From contig CP145415.1 in NCBI GenBank assembly GCA_036867785.1, positions 186,001 through 250,000 of the forward strand: a DNA stretch of 64,000 nucleotides, read 5' to 3'. Positions 29,574 to 46,081 of the stretch are shown one piece after another. The notes under the pieces are model-generated. The model searched no databases and was not told where the DNA came from. It saw only the letters and a list, made by a program, of their open reading frames with translations. The position numbers were made by a program, and so were the translations under genes. How positions within the stretch are numbered: position 1 is the stretch's first letter; every line of letters begins with the position of its first letter. The stretch comes from Plasmodiophora brassicae (lineage: Eukaryota).

Positions 29574-32500
29574 TCAGGGCCGACGTTGCCGCAACGATCG
29601 GGGCGTTGCGGCTGGCAGTGGGGTCTGCAGGCGCGACTGACTTCGCGTTGTACGCGGCGTGATCAGCGGGTTCGAAGGCGTTGCCGGTGCTTCGTCCAGC
29701 GGGCGTCGCACTCGACGCGGGGTCTTCGCCGCCGACGCGGGCGCGTCCCGCCGGCGAGGCTTTCCAGGCGTTGTCGTCGGCTTTGCATCGGATGGCGGTT
29801 CGTTCTCGGAAACCATAACGAGCCGTCGACGTGGTCTGGCGGGAGTCGCTGCTGCTGTAGGCTCAGTGGGCGCCACCAGCGGAATGGCAAACGCTTTGGC
29901 GGCGGGATGTCGCGCTGAGGAAGCGCCTGGAAGTGGGGACGGCACAAGACCGTCGATCTGGCGCGGCGGTGGCGTCAGTGGAATCGACAGGGACATTGGG
30001 AGTTTCGATGGCGAGCAGGGCGCAGGTCGCGCTGGCGCGTTCCGCGTTCGAACAGGGATGCCATAGCAGACGGGGGACGCGCCGACCAGGCTCTTCAGCT
30101 TGCAGACGCGCCGGGCGCTGGACACGGAGGCACACAGATCTGACACAGGCGGACAGTCAGCACGGCGGGTGACGCGTTCAGGACAACGCGACAGGCGACC
30201 TCTGTCGGCGGCGGGTTCGTCGAGCCAGCTATGCAGCAGGGCCTGGCTGAACCGGTCAATGTCGACGTCGGTGACATCCCACAGGTTGCCGAGGACGACA
30301 GGGCACCCAGCTTGCAGGTACGCGAGGCACATGCCGCGAGGTTCGTATTCGCCAGCGCCACGAAGCAAGCCGCTACTACAGCCGAGCAGCAGCGACGCCG
30401 AACGCACCTGTCAACCTATTTGTCAGGTGTCGGTACCAGCAGCGTGACGACACGCCCCGACCTGGTGCTTGCGAATCTGTGCGGCAGGAAGGTACTGCTC
30501 CCCCGCTGAATGGCCACAGTACAGGAACAAATCGTAGGTGGACAGCGCGTCACGAAGCTGGTCCGGGGTAGGAGGGACGCCAACCAGACCTTGCCACCCG
30601 GGGCGTTGTTTGAATTCGGGCTCCAAGCGGGCCTGGGTCTGCGGCAGGTTGCTGGACGGGTTCAGGACGTAGAACGACAGTGAGGAGTCGACCGTGAAGT
30701 CGCTTCGTCCGAGGCGCTGGACCAGCAGCGACAGACACGGGAGGCGGGCGACGGGCCGGTCAGCCAGCATCGGGAGGCTCTCCCAGGGAAGATGCTGAAC
30801 GGACGAGTCAAGTATCAGGACAGTCGGTGCGAGATTATCGGTGCCAAACTGGAGCCCCCTGATGACTGAGACGAGCGATTCGTCCACGCCCAGGTACGCA
30901 ACAGCCTCCTCAAGCTGCTTGGATGTTAAAAGCCGAGAGCCGCGAATCACGACATGGAGCAACGCGATGTCGCGCTGATCGACGATCGAGAATCGCTCAG
31001 CGATACCAGAGACAACGTGGTCGTCGACAGCGTCGAGGAAGCATCCCTTCAAGAAGGATATCCAATCGCGTTCCAGGTCGACGAGCAGATCGTTGAGTTG
31101 CCGGTCGAGGCGAATGCGAGCTGACCACCACCCACGACGCTGTTCAGCTGTCTCGGCGGATGCCTTCATCGATTCGTGGCTCTCCGAGATGATCTCGTCG
31201 AAACGCGAAAGCAGGTCGCGGGCGCTGCCGACGTCTCTGCGAACGATGAGCGGCGTTTGCTTGCGTCGCATCGTGCACAGGACCAGATGGTCGCCGTCGA
31301 GTTTGACCATGACGACGGTCCACTGGGCCGGCAGCCGATCGATGCAAGACGACTGCAGCTTGGCTGCTTGCGAACGCAGGGTGGTCGGTGCAAGAGCGAG
31401 CCGAGCGAACTGGGTCTCCAAGGCGTTGTCCTCGAACGATCGGCCATCCAGCACCACCTCGGTCTGAGCAGTAACCGCCATCCCTGCGAGAACCAGTCGG
31501 CAACTACAAGGATGACAACAACCCACAGGTACCTGATGACAATGCGAACGCTGCCACGATGGGATCGGTGATACCATACGCGTTCGTCGTCAGCGACGAC
31601 AGCGTCCTTCTGAGGTCGGGAACCTATACGCCCAGAAATGTCAGTCATACGTTGCGTTCGCAGAGAGGGGCACGCGTTGTCACGAACAGGAGCGTTCCAG
31701 CTCAGTTGCCACGCCTGGCCAAGGTACAGCCGGGCTTCTTGAAGCGCTTTAGAAGGTTGTTCAGCACGCGTCCAAGTGGTCGTGTCCGTCTTCAGCAAAG
31801 CAACCTTGGCGAGCAGCGTGAAAGCCCAGCAACGGGCAATGGCACTAAGCTGGTCGTCGTAGGCCAACCCGCGAAGCTCATCGATACCAGACTGGGGAGC
31901 GCCCTGACACGTGTCGCAGAGCCGATGGAACATGCACGATATCAGGAACGCGGGACCTGCAGTGGACTCTGTGAGCGACCAGCATTTGCAGGAATCGTTG
32001 GACATACCTTTACGTAGCGAGTCCCGTGAAGGAACAGAGAAGGTCGCCGGCGAATCCACACACTCCAAGCAACGAAGGTATTCAGCAGCGAAACCTAAAT
32101 CCAACGTGCTGGACGTTTCTGACAACTGAGCCAGCAGGTCAGATGCTTCGGCGGCGTTCTTGCGACGCTGGGCAATTCGAGCCAGGCCCCATCGGCCCAG
32201 GAACCGACAATCGTGTGCGGATAAGGAATCGGCAGATTCGACACACTGCCTGAGGTAGTAATGGGCCTGCACGTGGAACCCGGCCATTTCGAGAAGCATG
32301 CCATGATGGAACAGCCTCTGTGGCAGTCGGGAGATGGGCGGTTCGCCCGAAGCCCGGTATTCGAACCTCACAGCGGCTTCAGACGCAACCAGGGCGTCAA
32401 TGAGATCACCATTGAAACAGTGTACCTCGGCGATGGAGGACGCACGTTGAGCGCGATCGGCGTCGGTTTCGCACACAGCCGATGTCAGCCCCGATATATT

Positions 32501-38258: not shown

Positions 38259-39766
38259 ATGGCGGCCCTGATGCTGTCGATTGGCGCCATAGTTGTGGGG
38301 GTCGACGTCACATTCGGATCGATGACCTTCCCAGGAACATCGAATTCGCTCCTGCGTGGCGTGTCGTTGGACACGCCCGCGATGAGCCTGTTCATGGGTC
38401 CCCAACCGCAGGACAATATCGATCCTGTTACACGACCACTGGCCGTCGACTCTGGGGATATGTGCAACCCAGGCCCTGTCGACGATGCGACCCTTGTAGA
38501 CGGCAAGGTCGTTCTATTGGCCAACAGTGCCAGCCTGACATGCTCGTCCGAAACCGTCTACCTCAAGTACCTATCGTTGGGCGCCGCGGCTATCATTTTC
38601 CGTAAGATCGATGCCCTCTGGTCGAAGCCACGACGCTCGCTTACGCTTGCTGTGTTCCTGCTGTAGAAAACACACTTGGGACCCCGGGCCTGCACGCTTA
38701 CATGCAGGATGGAACACATGGGGCGCGAACTCGTTCGCATGCTATGATGTACCTGGATTTCAGCCCCGCATCGCAGGCAGTGTTCGATGCCATTCAGGGC
38801 AGCGCCGGCGCGAACGTCACCGTGTATCCGGACCCGAACGCATGGATTGACGCGTATAACTCCTGGTACTACCAAGTGTTCGTTCGATTCATTCCCAGTA
38901 TAACGCTGATAGCGTCGGGGCTGACTGCCGCCTATTTCTTCGTCATTCACATGCAGATTATGTTTGATGATGCCTCCTCTGTCGGCAACGTTGCACGATA
39001 TTTGCGTGCCCGACAACGGCTATGCCGAGCGTTGCGTCAAATTGCTACGCCACACGTCGTTCTGGTGTTAGAGGTGCTAACTGCCACCAGCGTCGGGATC
39101 ATGAACGCCGTCGGCGGCTTCTTCAGTAACAGCGTTCTGCCGGATCGCCTCTCAATGTTCATGATGACGCAATTCACCGGCTGGAGCTTTGTCTGTTCGA
39201 TCCTGTCTGCGCGCGTCTGGTACAGTCACCTGCAAGAGGTCAATGGACGCGCCACGGACGCGTTCATCGTGACGCGCGTGCTTCGCGGCGACTTTGTCTG
39301 GGTGACCGGATTCGTTTGTGCTTCGTCCATCATCGGTGACGTGTTCGGCTGCGTATACTATGCGACCTATCACCTTACCAGCACGTTGGCTGCTCCTGTC
39401 GGTGTCATCGCCCTGATTTTACAAATTGCGGTGGGCACCAACCTGGTAGTCGCCACCCTCCGCTTCTTCCGCACGGCACGTGCTACCACGACGAAGGTCG
39501 CCGCCGTTGTTGATGACAACAGCCGTGCCGCAATGCAGCGGATACTGAGCCGCTTGGCCGCATGCACATTGGGGATGGCGCTGTCAATGTTGTTATACTG
39601 TGTCGGGCTGATGATCATTTCCGGGCCGCAATCGTTCTTTATCACTCCTTCTGGGTGGACATTGGCGTGGTCACTTGGCATGACCGGTCGCGCCCTTGAC
39701 AGCGCATTTCGAGTCGCCATGTTCAAACCTCGTCAGCGCAACGCCCGCCACATCATCACCGTCTGA
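38259..39766 (+). CDS. Signal peptide + PA-like domain + 7TM membrane protein, paralog 1
   Basis: C....GKVVLL.....CSSETVY...GAAAII (PA-domain pattern), one intron at about 38602-38666, then seven hydrophobic segments ending GRALDSAFRVAMFKP. Confidence 0.75.
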
Positions 39767-40514: not shown

Positions 40515-42776
40515 TCATTTCCGCGAAGACTGACCAGCTGCCGCGTTGGAATGGGTGTTTGCCATGTTTGTGGTGAACGTGTCTTTCGTGGCCCTCTGCT
40601 TCGTCAGCTTGTCGACGTCGTCTGGCGTGTAGAATGCAATGATCCAGAACTTCTGCGCGAACAACGACACAACCGACCCCAGGACGACGATGACCGTCGC
40701 CACGACGCGGATGACGAGCTGGGTCGTTGCATTCCCGGACGTCAGTGCCAGGACGGGGATTGTCAGCGTGGTGACCAGCATGATGTTGTACGTGCACATT
40801 GCCATGTGCGCGCTCTCATTGTACATAAGCATGGCGATATGGCGCGACCTGATCGCTAATGCCGTCGCGGTCGCCACCAACGCCAGGCTTCCGATACCCA
40901 GCAGCCACAGGCCTGGCGCGTTGTACGCGCAGACGAATGAGAACTGGCGCAGGTCCTGGTCGGTCGCGGCACACGGCGATGGCACGAAGACGCGGGCGCT
41001 GACGGGCGCGCTGCCCTGCAGGGCCATCCAGACGCCCATGGCAGTCGCGACGACGGCCAGCATGACGGACAGGTACCGGGCGAGCATCACGTTCGTCATC
41101 TTGACAACGCGAAACCCGGTGGACGACGACGATTTGAATATGCGATACACACGCCAGTGCTTGAAGATCAGCGCGCCCATCATCAGCGCGAACCCGACCG
41201 CGAACAGCCAGGCGCTGACCCAGCAGGATCCGGGCCAGTTCGGTGGGTAGACGGCAGCGGCGTAGTTCGACGAGAGCAGTATGGCACCACCGGTGAGGAT
41301 GGCGACGCAGAACGAAGGCGACGCCGCTTTCATCACCGGGTGCGCTGCCTGGACCATGACGGCAACGATGCACAGGACGACAATGACGATGCTGACCGAG
41401 GTGATCGCCGTGACCAGCGACGTGGCCCAGTTCGCCACCCGTACCTCAAACAGGCAGTGGCCGGGCAGAGCGTCGCGCCCGTGCAGAAGCGCCACCATCG
41501 AACATTCGGCCTGGTTCAGGGCGCCCTGCGGGGACAAGCGCCCGACGAGCACATCGTTGACCGCCTTGTACAGGAACGACGACGCCTTCACGTAGTTTGA
41601 CGTGGTCTGCACGCTGAACCGGTTGACGATGTAGTCGTCGGGCAGCGGTGTCACGTCGCAGATCTGCGCGTGCGACAGATTGAACGGTTGGCACAGGCCG
41701 CTGCCGAAGTACATGTCGGAGCGTGTGGGCAGGCGCCCGAAGTTGCGGAAGTTGGCGACCTGCGTCTTTGGCGAGACCAGCGCCAGGAGGATGTCGACGG
41801 CCATACCGCGCATGGCGACCGCTTTGTTGATGCCGACCATCCACCCGCCCAGGGTCCCGTGCGATCGTGTCCCCGGTCCGTCGTTGGGCAGCAGGGCGAC
41901 GCCGACAAGATGCTGCAAAGGTGTGCCCTGAAGTGCACCGAGCGTGGCAGGCCAGTTACGGTGGAAGACCGAGTTGCCGGCGAGGAAGTCTGCTTGGCTG
42001 TCGGGCTCGATGTACCCGGCACAGGCCGGCGAGCTGATCCACCCGATCCAACGCTGCATACGGGTTAGCGCCTTCAGACCGGCAGCATTGTTGAAGGACA
42101 CGTGGCCATCGGCGTCAACGATGGTGCCGGCGCCGTGCGAGGCGAACAGCTCCAGGGCGTTGCAGGTGAGGCCCTCGTAGGCCGACCCTTGCCAGGAGTA
42201 CCCCCAGAAGTTCGGGTTCGTCGCCGTTTCGTTCGCCATGATAACGGCGGCCTGGTGTTCGAGTTCGTCCCAGGTGGCTGGCGGCCCAGTGAAACCGTAC
42301 TTGGCGAGGAGGTCCTTGCGGTAGTACAGGAACCCTGCGTTGACGTAATACGGGTCAGCAATGCGGGCGCCGTTGATCGTCGTGAATTGCAGAAGCTGTG
42401 GCGCAACAAGGTCCAGCTCGTCTTGCGTCAGCGCCAAGTTCAGGTCGAGCAAGTACGGAGCGAACGCGCCCGCCCAGATGAAGTCGGCAAACAAGACGGC
42501 CAGGGTTGGGTCCGCGTTCGTCAACGCGTTGAACAGCATCGAATACTTATCGTCCGATGCAGGCGGCAGGGCGACAAGGCGGATGGGGTTGTCGCCGGGC
42601 GTCAGCTGCACGAAGACGGCGGAGCTGGGCGTTTCGCACGGCTTCCCGCACGTCGACCAATTCGTGATCGCAGCGCTGGTGCCGGCCAAGGCGGCCAGTA
42701 CGATTGCAATCATCCAGCCTGGTGCGCAGCAGGTGGAAGGCGTGATCACACGAGCGGACAGACAGCCGGCGTCCAT
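40515..42776 (-). CDS. Chimeric receptor: bacterial-type ABC sugar-binding domain + class C (GABA-B-like) GPCR 7TM; intronless
   Basis: SBP motifs DFIWAGAF, LYYRKDLLAKYG..PPATWDEL, WQGSAYEGLTCNALE, FHRNWP, TLGGW. 7tm_3 motifs VMKAASPSFC, C..W...GFALMMGALIFKHWRVYRIF, YNES. Confidence 0.88.
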   Translation of the reverse strand: MDAGCLSARVITPSTCCAPGWMIAIVLAALAGTSAAITNWSTCGKPCETPSSAVFVQLTPGDNPIRLVALPPASDDKYSMLFNALTNADPTLAVLFADFIWAGAFAPYLLDLNLALTQDELDLVAPQLLQFTTINGARIADPYYVNAGFLYYRKDLLAKYGFTGPPATWDELEHQAAVIMANETATNPNFWGYSWQGSAYEGLTCNALELFASHGAGTIVDADGHVSFNNAAGLKALTRMQRWIGWISSPACAGYIEPDSQADFLAGNSVFHRNWPATLGALQGTPLQHLVGVALLPNDGPGTRSHGTLGGWMVGINKAVAMRGMAVDILLALVSPKTQVANFRNFGRLPTRSDMYFGSGLCQPFNLSHAQICDVTPLPDDYIVNRFSVQTTSNYVKASSFLYKAVNDVLVGRLSPQGALNQAECSMVALLHGRDALPGHCLFEVRVANWATSLVTAITSVSIVIVVLCIVAVMVQAAHPVMKAASPSFCVAILTGGAILLSSNYAAAVYPPNWPGSCWVSAWLFAVGFALMMGALIFKHWRVYRIFKSSSSTGFRVVKMTNVMLARYLSVMLAVVATAMGVWMALQGSAPVSARVFVPSPCAATDQDLRQFSFVCAYNAPGLWLLGIGSLALVATATALAIRSRHIAMLMYNESAHMAMCTYNIMLVTTLTIPVLALTSGNATTQLVIRVVATVIVVLGSVVSLFAQKFWIIAFYTPDDVDKLTKQRATKDTFTTNMANTHSNAAAGQSSRK

Positions 42777-43189
42777 TCGTCCACGAGGTCAACTGTTCGG
42801 TCCTTTCCGAGCGCTGTCCTACGGGCCGGGAACCGAGGTGGCCACAGTCCTATGACTGGTTGCAGAGCTCGGTTTGCTGCTTCTGTAACGTTGTTGGCAC
42901 CTGGCAGTCACAGTTACCTAGATCAGTTTGTGGGCGGTGCGTGATGCTTGGCGTATCGCTTTGACGAAGCACATTGTGCGTATTGTTTATTCCACTGGAC
43001 TCTCGCCGAGGATGACGGCGGAGCACATCGCCAACTTATCGGGCAGCGTGGCCGCCAGCCGCGTACGTGGCACCCGTCACGAGTTGCAGCGACGACTCGT
43101 CCAGCAGCGACAGGAACGGGTTGCGGAAGATGACGACACCTCGAACGGACATTGGCACGACACGACCCAACACGACCTGTCGACACGGC

Positions 43190-44910
43190 AGCCTCCACAT
43201 CACGGACAGGTCCAGCTGGATCGTGAGGCCGTATGATGCGTCGTGCCGAACAAGCAGGTACAGCCGCTTGTTCGACAACACGCTGACGTCGAAGAGCATC
43301 CACATCGGGTTGCATCGTTTTAGCCGACGTAACACACGCGCCGATGACCTCGATATGGATACAACAGGCAGCTCAACAACGTCAACGTTGGAGATATGTG
43401 GATTACAAAGGCCATCACCACGGATGCGTCGGTGGGCACCGACCAGGATGAAGTCGCGTCACCGACGAACCCCACCGTTTGGCGAATGACTCCCCGTCGT
43501 TCGTCCGAGAACGAAGCTGGCTAAGCATTCGGTCGAGATGGCAGAACAACATTCAGAAGTGCCTGCTCAAGTTCTCTGGGTGCATGAGCAAGGCCTTGGC
43601 CGAATCGCACTCTGGCTGGTCGTTAGACGACTACACCAACCTTGCCAAGGAATGCTACCACAAAGATATGGAGAAAGAGTTCGGCAGGGAGCCCGTGTGG
43701 GCGGAGGGTAGAAACCTGCCGAAGTTCGCCGTCCCCCCGTACACGATCTCGGCGTTGGTGCAGCAGGCGCTCAACATCGACGTCATCAAAGTGCGGAAGC
43801 CGGTCATGACGCCGTCAGTGTTGCCGGCGATGCATCACAGATTCTCGCTACGCCCTTGGCGCTGAGCAATCGACCTGCAGTTGGAAAGTGAAAGTAAAAG
43901 GCGAAGCGATTGAAGGATGAGGAAGCCGGCTGCGATCACGACGCGGGTGGTGGATTTCTCCAAGAATTCCTCGCCAGGAACGTGGCGAAGAGCGAAATTG
44001 CCCGCAAGCGAGCGGAGGCGGCGCACGAGCTGGCGGCTGTCGCTCGTGATCGGTATAATCCCAGGATGTTCGCTGAAGGCCGTTGCAGTGAGTCGGTGGG
44101 GTACTTGAGCCTCAAGCGCCGCCAGCAACTGCTCGTCGAAGCGCGCGTTGAATTGCAGCAGAAACCGCAGGAGTCGCGTCGGTTGGCGATGATGCTGGAA
44201 GAGGCCACGAAGGGGCCGATAATGGCAGTGGCGCCTACCTCTGACCTCCGCCCACACGAGCTCCCTGCCGAACTCTTTCTCCATCTCCTTGTGGTAGCAT
44301 TCCTTGGCAAGGTTGGTGTAGTCGTCTAACGCCCAGCCAGAGTGCGATCCGGCCAAGGCCTTGCTCATGCACCCAGAGAACTTGAGCAGGCACTTCTGAA
44401 CGATCTCGGACGAACGACGGGGAGTCATTCACCAAACGGTGGGTTTCGTCGGTGACGCGACGCCATCCTGGTCGGTGCCTACCGATGCATCCGTGGTGCA
44501 GGCCTTGTAAGCTCTGGCGATGATGATGTCCTCGGAGGACGTGAAGTTGTTGTGCCCGGGTGCCTTCCCGCGTCGAGCAGGAGTCGACGACGACGACAAC
44601 CCCGGCGCGCTGTCCGCCATTTTGCTGTCTTCAAATCCGTTCCAGATCTGTTCAATTCTGGTAATGGCAATCCATATCCGTTTGTAGATATGGACAACGA
44701 GTGGGGTACAGATTCTCTATCGTTATCTTACGTTATAGAACGCCTACCCTCCCGGTAAGGGTTATAAAACAGAGCTATGTCATCACGTACCCGCACAGAC
44801 GAAGTAGCGCCGGGTGAGTCGTCACGCTCACGACGCACAGCATCTTGCTCATCGCCGGGTGTTAGACTGTTCGTCGCTATCGTCGTCGCTCGACACGGGG
44901 TCCAAATCCT
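43190..44910. mobile_element. Composite repeat block 1: decayed Myb/SANT (NAM-associated, PIF/Harbinger ORF1-like) gene in inverted pieces plus an unidentified gene fragment
   Basis: NNFTSSEDIIIARAY...DASVGTDQ, RSWLSIRSRWQNNIQK and SGWSLDDY occur on both strands. The block matches 50830-52310. Confidence 0.7.
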
Positions 44911-45925
44911 TTGTACTCAGTACAGACCGGCAGCGGATCGGGAGGATATTGCGAATTGGCCCGTTCGAATGACGGCAGTACCGCTAGCCTGGACAGGATC
45001 GCCATCTGCTTCTGAAGTTGTGCCGCGCGCCGAATATCTTCTGTCCGTCGTACGGGACCGTTATTGGCGTCGTCGTCGTCGGATGCGATACCATCAACGG
45101 CAAGATCGATGCGGTTTCGTCGCTTCCGCATAATCACGCCATTGCACAGTGGCACCAGCCGGTCAACGAGCGACGCGCTTCACTGGACTACGTCGTGAGC
45201 GTCCTGTCGTCTGGCCATCAGCACGACGGGCTCGATGGCCATTATGTCGACATCGTCTGCGTGCTTGTTGGTACACCCGTCTTCGCGCAGCGTGCCGCCG
45301 ACTGGCCTATATGTATTAGGAAAAGGTAATGGGCGAAGCCCTCCCATTCGACGACGCTTGCGTACAGCGGACAGCCTCGTCGACGTCGTTCGCCCTGTGG
45401 CTTCAGGAGGAATTTGCCGTCGCTGAAGGACATCGATGGCCTGATAGATCAGATGGCGTCGTGCCGCCGTCCAGCTGCCTTCAATGCGTCTGTCCTAGTG
45501 CTGAAAGAACGGTCGCTTTGGACGCAAAGCTTGGCGGCTTGCGTTTTACCCATCTCGTACCGGGCGATGTTGGGCGCAGATCGGGATCTGCGGGCGGAGA
45601 CACATTCAGCCATCGACTCGACGGAGTGCTGCGTAGTCATTTGCTCTTCGGTGGCCGCTGCAGCGCGGTGATGCACTTGATTGCTGCTTCCGTACGACAT
45701 TGGTAGAATAGCATGCTAGATGGGCGTTTTCTCTGCACTCTGTTCGTGCGCGTTATCGCAGTGCGTCCAACCAGATGCCAGATTTACCCAGACCACGTGA
45801 TGTCCAAGGTCCTGATATTATGGGTGATCCCTTGCACTCGTTAGTACCAGCCCACTTCAACTAGCCTACTGCGTCTCCATGGCTGTCCCATCCGTACCGA
45901 TGACTTTGCCGCAACCCATTAGGTA

Positions 45926-46081
45926 TATGTAGGCAGGCCAGTCGCACGGCCGTTATGTCCGTTGTATGTAGGCAGGCCAGTCGCACGGCCGTTATGTCCG
46001 TTGTATGTAGGCAGGCCAGTCGCACGGCCGTTATGTCCGTTGTATGTAGGCAGGCCAGTCGCACGGCCGTTATGTCCGTTG
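45926..46081. repeat. Perfect minisatellite, 4 x 39 bp
   Basis: Unit TATGTAGGCAGGCCAGTCGCACGGCCGTTATGTCCGTTG, four identical head-to-tail copies with no spacers. Confidence 0.97.

What the first reader, a model, noticed from the sequence alone, without database searches (positions are those of the whole stretch)
40515..42776. Bacterial trehalose/maltose-type sugar-binding protein fused to a class C GPCR 7TM: candidate sugar-sensing receptor
Seen: an intronless 753-aa ORF in an intron-rich region, with signal peptide, a ~380-aa domain carrying ABC sugar-binding motifs (DxIW, YRKDLL, WQG.AYEGLTC, RNWP, TLGGW), and a GABA-B-like 7TM. Known: class C GPCRs normally use a type I Venus-flytrap domain, whereas these motifs belong to type II (MalE/ThuE-like) binding proteins. 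Inference: a domain swap, possibly from a horizontally acquired bacterial gene, gives a receptor for host or exudate sugars. Related SBP-7tm_3 fusions may exist in other protists or zoosporic fungi, so novelty needs a search.
Basis: partly seen in the sequence, partly recalled or inferred. Interest (0 to 1): 0.8.

Follow-up and report, generated by a model that had tools for sequence, protein, structure and literature searches.

The report
Known sugar-binding-domain GPCR fusion gene
A gene of the clubroot pathogen lineage joins a bacterial-type sugar-binding domain to a GABA-B-like seven-helix receptor; the gene is real, but this kind of fusion is already in print for this organism and for zoosporic fungi, and its ligand is still untested.

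Summary
The 753-aa ORF at 40515-42776 (minus strand) is real. It carries SBP_bac_1 and 7tm_3. Its ectodomain folds like the Thermus alpha-glycoside (trehalose/maltose) binding protein, and its 7TM is closest to GABA-B.

It is not new. The exact protein is already in NCBI/UniRef. Rolfe et al. 2016 (PMC4815078) described these Plasmodiophora brassicae 7tm3+SBP fusions, calling them transporters unique to that species. Krishnan 2012 (PMC3251606) and Seppala 2016 (PMC5168858) reported type II sugar-SBP class C GPCRs in Allomyces and anaerobic gut fungi.

- 22 of 29 looked-up relatives come from Chytridiomycota or Blastocladiomycota.
- All 32 eukaryotic SBP domains sit on one side of a 100/99 branch against 44 bacterial ones.
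- They share a Cys-pair loop that the bacterial proteins lack.
- The sugar pocket is kept except Asp->Asn at position 146, and class C switch residues are kept, which favours a receptor over a transporter.

A 58-nt GT..AG joint inside the ORF lies on the opposite strand. Ligand and G-protein coupling remain inferred.

The parts
40515..42776 (-). Complete CDS of the SBP-7TM receptor (753 codons plus stop at 40515-40517); alternative start at Met22 (42713)
   Evidence: the exact protein is in public collections, and P0286 is the same protein from Met22
42669..42776 (-). N-terminal leader, residues 1-36, with a signal-like hydrophobic core at about 22-36 (…GTSA/AI…)
   Evidence: hydropathy; low model confidence for 1-18 and 33-52; inferred, no predictor run
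41481..42617 (-). Type II (cluster B, trehalose/maltose-type) solute-binding ectodomain, residues about 54-432. Pocket residues D98, Y144, N146, E257, W275, G310, G311, W312, R386. Eukaryote-specific Cys pair C362/C373.
41424..41480 (-). Short stalk between the SBP domain and TM1 (residues 433-451), no cysteine-rich domain. C441 and C425 form a conserved Cys pair limited to the Plasmodiophora clade and two metagenome sisters.
40629..41423 (-). Class C (7tm_3, GABA-B-like) seven-helix domain, residues 452-716. Holds TM3 C518 and ECL2 C616, K539 (KHWRV), E654 (NES) and K709.
40518..40628 (-). Cytoplasmic tail, residues 717-753; helix modelled to 743, last residues of low confidence
42505..42562 (+). 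58-nt GT..AG intron of a plus-strand (antisense) transcript that overlaps the 5' third of the CDS. It is not part of the coding mRNA.
   Evidence: joint in contigs of 4 of 4 laid runs; sequence; removal gives a stop at codon 93, and the longest ATG ORF of the spliced plus-strand RNA is 119 aa

Best explanation
The gene encodes a class C (GABA-B-like) G-protein-coupled receptor. Its usual type I flytrap is replaced by a bacterial-type, type II ABC solute-binding domain of the trehalose/maltose (alpha-glucoside) kind. Shown here: the architecture, the fold, retention of most sugar-pocket residues, and retention of class C 7TM hallmark residues. Inferred: (1) after signal-peptide cleavage the SBP domain faces outward; (2) an alpha-glucoside-type sugar (trehalose, maltose or sucrose are the candidates) closes the two lobes, as in free SBPs; (3) the movement passes through a roughly 20-residue Cys-stapled stalk to the 7TM; (4) the 7TM activates a heterotrimeric G protein. 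The protein is therefore a nutrient or host-sugar sensor, not a transporter. The family arose from one bacterial SBP lineage and is shared with zoosporic fungi. In Plasmodiophora it has diversified into at least four types whose pockets differ.
For: Domains: SBP_bac_1 and 7tm_3 are both above Pfam cut-offs. All 33 fusion proteins in alignment A1 carry both domains (33 of 61 members have 7tm_3, 61 of 61 have SBP_bac_1).

Fold: the AF2 model has pLDDT 87.1 and pTM 0.76. The best Foldseek PDB matches are the Thermus alpha-glycoside-binding protein with trehalose, maltose or glucose (E about 1e-28, target TM 0.82-0.83, rmsd 2.5-2.7 A, 34-35% identity), then T. litoralis TMBP and T. maritima MalE3. 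By sequence, 6j9w_A scores E 1.2e-66 over residues 70-429.

Pocket: four Thermus residues are named as mutants in the PDB titles (R49, D118, W287, R356). By the alignment they map to K77, N146, W312 and R386. D98, E201, W275, G310 and R386 are kept in 7 of 7 Plasmodiophora fusions, in 25-26 of 26 other fusions and in 28 of 28 bacterial SBPs.

7TM: the best solved relatives are GABA-B subunits. TM3 Cys518 and ECL2 Cys616 occur in 33 of 33 fusions, K539 in 27 of 33, E654 in 29 of 33 (plus 2 Asp) and K709 in 26 of 33. In the alignment these align with the K..WRV and N-D-S positions of GABA-B2.

Coding: GC3 is 0.836. Paralogues at 41-45% identity keep the frame over the whole length.

Literature: passages read in PMC5168858 interpret type II sugar-SBP class C GPCRs of gut fungi as carbohydrate-sensing receptors. 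[quoted passage not shown]
Against: No ligand-binding or signalling data exist for any member of the family in the papers found.

Asp118 of the Thermus protein is a probed sugar-contact residue. Here it is Asn146, whereas it is Asp in 24 of 26 other fusions and 22 of 28 bacterial SBPs, so specificity may have shifted.

Heterotrimeric G proteins in this organism were not checked here. No genome is held and Bi et al. 2019 is not held.

The only authors who described these very genes called them transporters (PMC4815078).

In the laid contigs the 5' third of the CDS is seen only in a form spliced on the opposite strand. Sense transcription of that part therefore rests on Rolfe's statement and on sequence conservation.
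Confidence: 0.6

Rival explanations
1. It is a new kind of eukaryotic solute transporter: the SBP captures trehalose, maltose or oligosaccharide and the seven helices carry it across the membrane (the reading of Rolfe et al. 2016).
For: Stated in PMC4815078 (section 13 and conclusion passages read). The closest free relatives of the ectodomain serve ABC importers.
Against: The membrane part matches 7tm_3 at 108.5 bits and solved GABA-B and mGlu receptors, and no transporter family. No ABC permease or ATPase domain is present in the protein. Class C hallmark residues (TM3-ECL2 Cys pair, K539, E654, K709) are kept. To my knowledge no 7tm_3 protein is known to transport solutes (recalled).
Confidence: 0.05
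2. It is a class C receptor, but its ligand is not an alpha-glucoside disaccharide. The pocket has drifted to another small molecule, such as another plant or microbial glycoside or a sulfosugar.
For: Asp->Asn at 146 and Arg->Lys at 77, relative to the Thermus contact residues. Pockets vary strongly among paralogues: P0005/P0270 change R153, D155, Q196, Y200, E257, G311 and W312. Sulfoquinovosyl-glycerol binding proteins are the next structural neighbours (E about 1e-19 to 3e-20).
Against: In this copy most of the conserved pocket is intact: D98, Y144, E257, W275, G310, G311, W312 and R386. The best matches by far are trehalose/maltose binders.
Confidence: 0.22
3. The ectodomain senses a sugar, but the 7TM signals without a heterotrimeric G protein (other effectors, or a scaffold or adhesion role), or the protein needs a paralogue as heterodimer partner, as GABA-B does.
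For: Near-identical paralogues exist (P0002 at 92% and P0284 at 93% identity), listed on a contig of the same length. GABA-B, the closest solved relative, is an obligate heterodimer (abstract of PMC5360267 in the listing).
Against: The K539/E654 pair and K709, positions used in class C G-protein activation (recalled role), are conserved.
Confidence: 0.1
4. The gene model is wrong: the mRNA starts near 42020 or is spliced at 42505-42562, so no full SBP-7TM protein is made.
For: Contigs of 4 of 4 laid runs break at 42019/42020 with loose ends. To the right of the break they carry only the form lacking 58 nt.
Against: The GT..AG lies on the plus strand. Removing the 58 nt from the minus CDS gives a stop at codon 93. 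Residues 72-91, encoded by that stretch, are conserved in frame in paralogues and align with the bacterial SBP. Rolfe et al. report single coding regions from their transcriptome. Contigs drop rarer variants (tool note).
Confidence: 0.03

Closest known systems
Plasmodiophora brassicae '7tm3 + SBP/PBP' fusion proteins of Rolfe et al. 2016 (BMC Genomics 17:272, PMC4815078, Fig. 3)
   Same: Same organism lineage and same architecture (SBP_bac_1 + 7tm3). Four sugar-type members are predicted there as trehalose/maltose/oligosaccharide binders; this protein is most probably one of them or a near copy. The exact sequence is in NCBI/UniRef, in a cluster with P. brassicae entries.
   Different: The authors call them transporters and state that no other eukaryote has such fusions. 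Here the membrane part is shown to be a GABA-B-like class C 7TM, and relatives are found in many zoosporic fungi. Which of their gene ids is this one could not be settled, because supplements are closed.
Type II SBP class C GPCRs of early-diverging fungi: Allomyces macrogynus SBP_bac_1 Glutamate-family receptors (Krishnan et al. 2012, PMC3251606) and anaerobic gut fungi (Seppala et al. 2016, PMC5168858)
   Same: A bacterial sugar-uptake-type type II SBP is fused N-terminally to 7tm_3, with no ANF domain and no nine-cysteine domain. It is read as a carbohydrate sensor and HGT is suggested. The fungal and plasmodiophorid SBP domains form one clan against bacteria (100/99) and share a Cys-pair loop (31 of 33 fusions against 0 of 28 bacterial).
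   Different: Different supergroup (Rhizaria, not Fungi). The Plasmodiophora clade is not nested inside the fungal clan. It also has its own stalk Cys pair (7 of 7, against 2 of 26 other fusions). Gut-fungal sequences were not sampled here.
Thermus thermophilus alpha-glycoside-binding protein (PDB 6J9W and mutants) and Thermococcus litoralis TMBP (1EU8)
   Same: Same fold (target TM 0.81-0.83), 32-35% identity, and most pocket residues shared.
   Different: Those are free or lipid-anchored partners of ABC importers. Here the domain is covalently joined to a 7TM, carries extra Cys pairs and N-glycosylation sequons, and has Asn in place of Asp118.
Metabotropic GABA-B receptor (GB1/GB2)
   Same: Closest solved 7TM. 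There is no cysteine-rich domain, only a short stalk between ectodomain and TM1. The TM3-ECL2 cysteines and the K(TM3)/acidic(TM6) pair are kept.
   Different: GABA-B uses a type I flytrap (ANF_receptor) and works as a heterodimer. Here the ectodomain is type II, and the oligomeric state is unknown.

Membership tests
Class C (family 3) GPCR | 7tm_3 seven-helix domain above Pfam's gathering score | tested here: met
   108.5 bits against a cut-off of 33.5, residues 453-709; seven hydrophobic segments; seven long helices in the model; GABA-B and mGlu are the best solved matches
Class C (family 3) GPCR | Conserved TM3-ECL2 cysteine pair and class C switch residues (Lys at the TM3 end, acidic residue at the TM6 start, Lys in TM7) | tested here: met
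   C518 and C616 in 33 of 33 fusions; K539 in 27 of 33; E654 in 29 of 33 (+2 D); K709 in 26 of 33. They align with GABA-B2 K..WRV and N-D-S. The functional role of these positions is recalled.
Class C (family 3) GPCR | Type I Venus-flytrap ectodomain (ANF_receptor / Peripla_BP_6) | tested here: not met
   No ANF_receptor match at E<=1; the ectodomain is SBP_bac_1, type II. This feature is typical of metazoan members but is not required by the 7tm_3 definition.
Class C (family 3) GPCR | Nine-cysteine domain (NCD3G) between ectodomain and 7TM | tested here: not met
   No match; the stalk is about 19 residues. GABA-B also lacks this domain (PMC5168858 passage).
Class C (family 3) GPCR | Constitutive dimer; coupling to a heterotrimeric G protein | not testable with these tools
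   Needs biochemistry. No genome of the organism is held in which to look for G-alpha.
Cluster B sugar solute-binding proteins (SBP_bac_1; trehalose/maltose, ThuE/TMBP-like) | SBP_bac_1 profile match and the bilobed type II fold | tested here: met
   47.8 bits against a cut-off of 26; 6j9w_A E 1.2e-66; Foldseek target TM 0.82-0.83
Cluster B sugar solute-binding proteins (SBP_bac_1; trehalose/maltose, ThuE/TMBP-like) | Sugar-contact residues of the solved trehalose/maltose binders | tested here: inconclusive
   W287->W312 and R356->R386 are kept, R49->K77 and D118->N146. D98, E257, W275, G310 and G311 are kept. Mapping the Athe_2310 pocket list (PMC12096829) onto these positions was done by motif only.
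Cluster B sugar solute-binding proteins (SBP_bac_1; trehalose/maltose, ThuE/TMBP-like) | Works with an ABC permease/ATPase | tested here: not met
   The domain is covalently fused to a 7tm_3 domain and the protein has no ABC domain. The rest of the genome could not be searched.
Solute transporter (Rolfe et al. reading) | A membrane domain of a known transporter family | tested here: not met
   Pfam and the PDB sequence search find only 7tm_3 and class C GPCRs for residues 437-753.

The most novel reading that the evidence does not exclude
The plasmodiophorid and zoosporic-fungal SBP-GPCRs descend from one capture of a bacterial trehalose/maltose-type binding protein. They survive, or were passed between eukaryotes, only in zoospore-forming, plant- or detritus-associated lineages. 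There they act as the sugar chemosensors that steer zoospores and intracellular plasmodia. The recently multiplied type found here, with its Asp->Asn pocket change, would be tuned to a particular host or self-made sugar such as trehalose.
Probability: 0.25. Interest if true: 0.65.

Novelty: already known. Interest (0 to 1): 0.3.

Why it matters
How zoospores and intracellular stages of the clubroot pathogen perceive host sugars is not known, and no member of this receptor family has a proven ligand. The gene is a reasonable candidate sugar sensor, and its ectodomain should be easy to test as a soluble protein. The useful corrections to the literature are modest. The membrane part is a GPCR module, not a transporter. 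The family is not unique to Plasmodiophora: it shares an origin with fusions in Chytridiomycota and Blastocladiomycota.

Tried and rejected
- Whole-genome search for paralogues and G proteins: no genome is held for this window. tblastn inside the window finds only this one locus.
- The search for homologous proteins on the 7TM part alone (residues 440-753) returned only P0002. The word candidates were swamped, so the nearest 7tm_3 relatives with other ectodomains were not obtained and no 7TM tree was made.
- Homodimer of the ectodomain (residues 37-450, two copies): complex prediction gave 'no answer', score 0.00, controls not folded. This is no evidence either way.
- Sequencing runs: 20 runs of 10 studies hold the stretch, but no RNA holder is on record; the four runs laid are only guessed to be RNA and are contigs.
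- The contig break at 42019/42020 in all four runs, with short unlike ends, is unexplained. The end sequences are not in the window (0 matches).
- Bi et al. 2019 (GPCR signalling in P. brassicae) is not held; only its citation was seen.
- A search for G-protein papers on P. brassicae listed none among its 12 rows.
- The NCBIfam scan gave only a sub-threshold UgpB match (16.4 bits against 411).
- Pfam found nothing in the plus-strand ORFs overlapping or right of the gene, nor in the 354-aa neighbour.
- Earlier findings of this scan: none for this place or sequence.
- P0122, the second-best hit, was first taken for a fusion but is a tandem double SBP without a 7TM.
- The first quick tree (LG+G4) gave only 91 SH-aLRT for the fusion group. 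It was replaced by a tree with bacterial neighbours of both the Plasmodiophora and a chytrid domain.
Full report
**Observation.** The window holds an uninterrupted ATG-to-stop ORF of 753 codons at 40515..42776 on the minus strand. Pfam finds SBP_bac_1 (residues 101-318, E 2.7e-12, 47.8 bits against a cut-off of 26). It also finds 7tm_3 (residues 453-709, E 5.7e-31, 108.5 bits against 33.5). It finds nothing else at E<=1, so there is no ANF_receptor and no NCD3G. Hydropathy shows a signal-like stretch at about 22-36 and seven hydrophobic segments after residue 447. GC3 of the frame is 0.836, against 0.565 for the longest antisense ORF.

**What the two halves are.**
- Against all PDB sequences, residues 70-429 match the Thermus 'ABC transporter periplasmic substrate-binding protein' 6J9W family at E 1.2e-66. 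The Thermococcus litoralis trehalose/maltose-binding protein 1EU8 scores 6.8e-47 and T. maritima MalE3 scores 1.3e-47.
- An AlphaFold2 model built on a 61-sequence alignment has mean pLDDT 87.1 and pTM 0.76.
- Its best Foldseek matches in the PDB are the same Thermus alpha-glycoside-binding protein, in complexes with trehalose, maltose and glucose (E about 1e-28, target TM 0.82-0.83, rmsd 2.5-2.7 A, 34-35% identity). Then come 1EU8 and MalE3, and more distantly the sulfoquinovosyl-glycerol binders.
- Residues 437-753 on their own match GABA-B subunits best (E 1.8e-13 to 2.8e-10), then mGlu4 (4.7e-8). Only about 19 residues lie between the last SBP helix (416-432) and TM1 (449-475 in the model), and there is no cysteine-rich domain.

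**Pocket and switch residues.**
- The PDB titles name the Thermus residues that were mutated: R49, D118, W287 and R356. In the residue-by-residue alignment they correspond to K77, N146, W312 and R386.
- In alignment A1 (7 Plasmodiophora fusions, 26 other fusions, 28 bacterial SBPs), D98 is kept in 7/7, 25/26 and 28/28. E201, W275 and G310 are invariant. R386 is kept in 7/7, 25/26 and 28/28.
- Position 146 is Asp in 24/26 other fusions and 22/28 bacterial proteins. It is Asn in this protein and its two near copies, Asp in P0003 and P0004, and Gln in P0005 and P0270.
- The P0005/P0270 type has also changed R153, D155, Q196, Y200, E257, G311 and W312, so the paralogues probably differ in ligand.
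- Passages of PMC12096829 list the pocket of a related maltose/trehalose binder as D69, F119, D121, E225, W243, G278, G279, W280 and R351. My matching of these to D98, Y144, N146, E257, W275, G310, G311, W312 and R386 is by motif only.
- On the 7TM side, the TM3 and ECL2 cysteines (C518, C616) are in 33/33 fusions, K539 in 27/33, E654 in 29/33 (plus two Asp) and K709 in 26/33. In one search these align with the K..WRV and N-D-S motifs of GABA-B2. That these positions act in class C activation is recalled, not tested.

**Who else has it.**
- The exact protein is already in NCBI, UniRef and nr. It sits in a 90% cluster with P. brassicae entries: P0002 (92% identical) and P0284 (93%). P0286 is the same protein annotated from Met22. 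More distant P. brassicae paralogues with the same two domains are 41-45% identical.
- An exhaustive HMMER search of 1.84 billion representatives gave 4494 hits at E<=0.001, of which the best 150 were listed.
- A local 7TM profile found 34 proteins with a 7TM among the 267 then held. Of these, 33 also had the SBP domain.
- Of the 29 relatives looked up by name, 22 are from Chytridiomycota or Blastocladiomycota: Fimicolochytrium, Irineochytrium, Lobulomyces/Clydaea, Chytriomyces, Entophlyctis, Phlyctochytrium, Borealophlyctis, Blastocladiella, Allomyces and Paraphysoderma. Spizellomyces appeared.
- All 33 fusions put into A1 carry both Pfam domains.

**Origin.**
- I built a tree of the SBP domain alone. 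It had 32 eukaryotic rows, 22 bacterial rows nearest to this protein and 22 nearest to a chytrid domain.
- Under LG+C20+F+G4 (PMSF), with 76 rows and 387 columns, the careful search puts all 44 bacterial rows on one side of a branch and all 32 eukaryotic rows on the other. Support is 100 (ultrafast bootstrap) and 99 (SH-aLRT). The fungal clan and the Plasmodiophora clan each get 100/99.
- The bootstrap had not fully settled (correlation 0.983). Two fungal rows are long branches, ten rows have deviant composition, and the root is not inferred.
- An independent character agrees. A loop between the positions of residues 355 and 380 holds two or more cysteines in 7/7 Plasmodiophora and exactly two in 24/26 other fusions, but none in 28 bacterial SBPs. 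A second Cys pair in the stalk (C425/C441) is limited to Plasmodiophora (7/7) and its two metagenome sisters (2/26).
- The simplest reading is one capture of a bacterial SBP lineage, followed either by vertical descent with many losses or by an early transfer between eukaryotes. The Plasmodiophora clade is not nested inside the fungal one, so the direction cannot be told.

**What is in print.**
- Rolfe et al. 2016 (PMC4815078; section 13 and passages read) describe 'novel putative transporters' of P. brassicae that fuse 7tm3 with SBP_bac_1 or PBP_like_2. Four are predicted to bind trehalose, maltose or oligosaccharide. They are said to be expressed early in infection and in galls and to be single coding regions by transcriptome. 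They are also said to be found in no other eukaryote, and HGT is suggested.
- Krishnan et al. 2012 (PMC3251606, passages read) had already listed SBP_bac_1 on eight Allomyces Glutamate-family receptors.
- Seppala et al. 2016 (PMC5168858, passages read) report that almost half of the class C GPCRs of anaerobic gut fungi carry a type II SBP domain. [quoted passage not shown]
- A full-text search for SBP_bac_1 together with 7tm_3 finds only the first two papers.
- No paper found reports a ligand or a signalling assay.
- The finding is therefore already known as a kind, and for this organism.

**Transcripts.**
- Twenty runs of ten studies hold the stretch. I laid four runs whose kind is only guessed to be RNA; all four are contigs.
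- In each of the four a contig crosses the SBP-7TM junction (about 41424-41480) without a joint. Examples are 40534-42018 in X9 and 40915-42020 in X4.
- In each, contigs to the right (42019 to beyond 43000) lack 58 nt, 42505-42562. The skipped piece begins GT and ends AG on the plus strand.
- Taken out of the minus-strand CDS it would give a stop at codon 93. The spliced plus-strand RNA has no ATG ORF longer than 119 aa in 1841 nt, and its ORFs have no Pfam match.
- Residues 72-91, encoded by those 58 nt, are conserved in frame in the paralogues and align with the bacterial protein.
- I therefore read the joint as the intron of an antisense, probably non-coding, transcript. Why all four assemblies break at 42019/42020 is unexplained.

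**Mechanism and verdict.** The most likely reading (0.6) is a class C receptor whose outward-facing SBP closes on an alpha-glucoside-type sugar and, through a short Cys-stapled stalk, switches a GABA-B-like 7TM that activates a G protein. The architecture, fold and residue conservation are shown. Topology, ligand, transmission and coupling are inferred. The rivals are:
- a receptor with a different ligand (0.22);
- G-protein-independent or heterodimer-dependent signalling (0.1);
- a transporter (0.05);
- a wrong gene model (0.03).

Novelty: already known. Interest: 0.3.

Noticed in passing
window 42019-43917 (+), intron 42505-42562: A spliced plus-strand transcript, antisense to the first roughly 750 nt of the receptor CDS, is seen in contigs of 4 of 4 laid runs. 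It has a 58-nt GT..AG intron and no ATG ORF over 119 aa, and is probably a non-coding antisense RNA.
   Followed up: partly
window 42019/42020: Contigs of all four laid runs end or begin exactly here, with short unlike ends that occur nowhere in the window. Depth is about 1.4- to 3-fold higher on the left side. This may reflect near-identical paralogues or a strain difference; it is unexplained.
   Followed up: partly
window 43408-43712 and 44240-44506: Inverted repeat with arms of 106 + 161 nt at 92-96% complementarity. ORFs on the two arms encode near-identical peptides (…QKCLLKFSGCMSKALA…) with no Pfam match. It is possibly a foldback or transposon-like element next to the receptor's 5' end.
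   Followed up: partly
window 45887-46081: Tandem array of a 39-nt unit; three overlapping 78-nt registers are 100% identical.
   Followed up: no
window 38702-39766 (+): Convergent neighbour: a 354-aa ORF with about five or six hydrophobic segments and no Pfam match. It is a multi-pass membrane protein of unknown family ending 750 nt from the receptor's stop.
   Followed up: partly
window 30423-31589 (-): An ORF piece with a strong Peptidase_C50 (separase) match (E 2.6e-55). Adjacent minus-strand ORF pieces suggest a multi-exon gene.
   Followed up: no
proteins P0002, P0284 (outside the window): Two 92-93% identical copies of this receptor carry separate accessions and are listed on a contig of the same length (1,368,189) as this protein's. 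This points to a recent local multiplication of the receptor type with Asn146.
   Followed up: partly
proteins P0288, P0297, P0299 (chytrids): Chytridium and Phlyctochytrium also have roughly 420-444-aa SBP-only gene models that fall inside the fungal fusion clan. They are either free or anchored SBPs, or truncated gene models.
   Followed up: no
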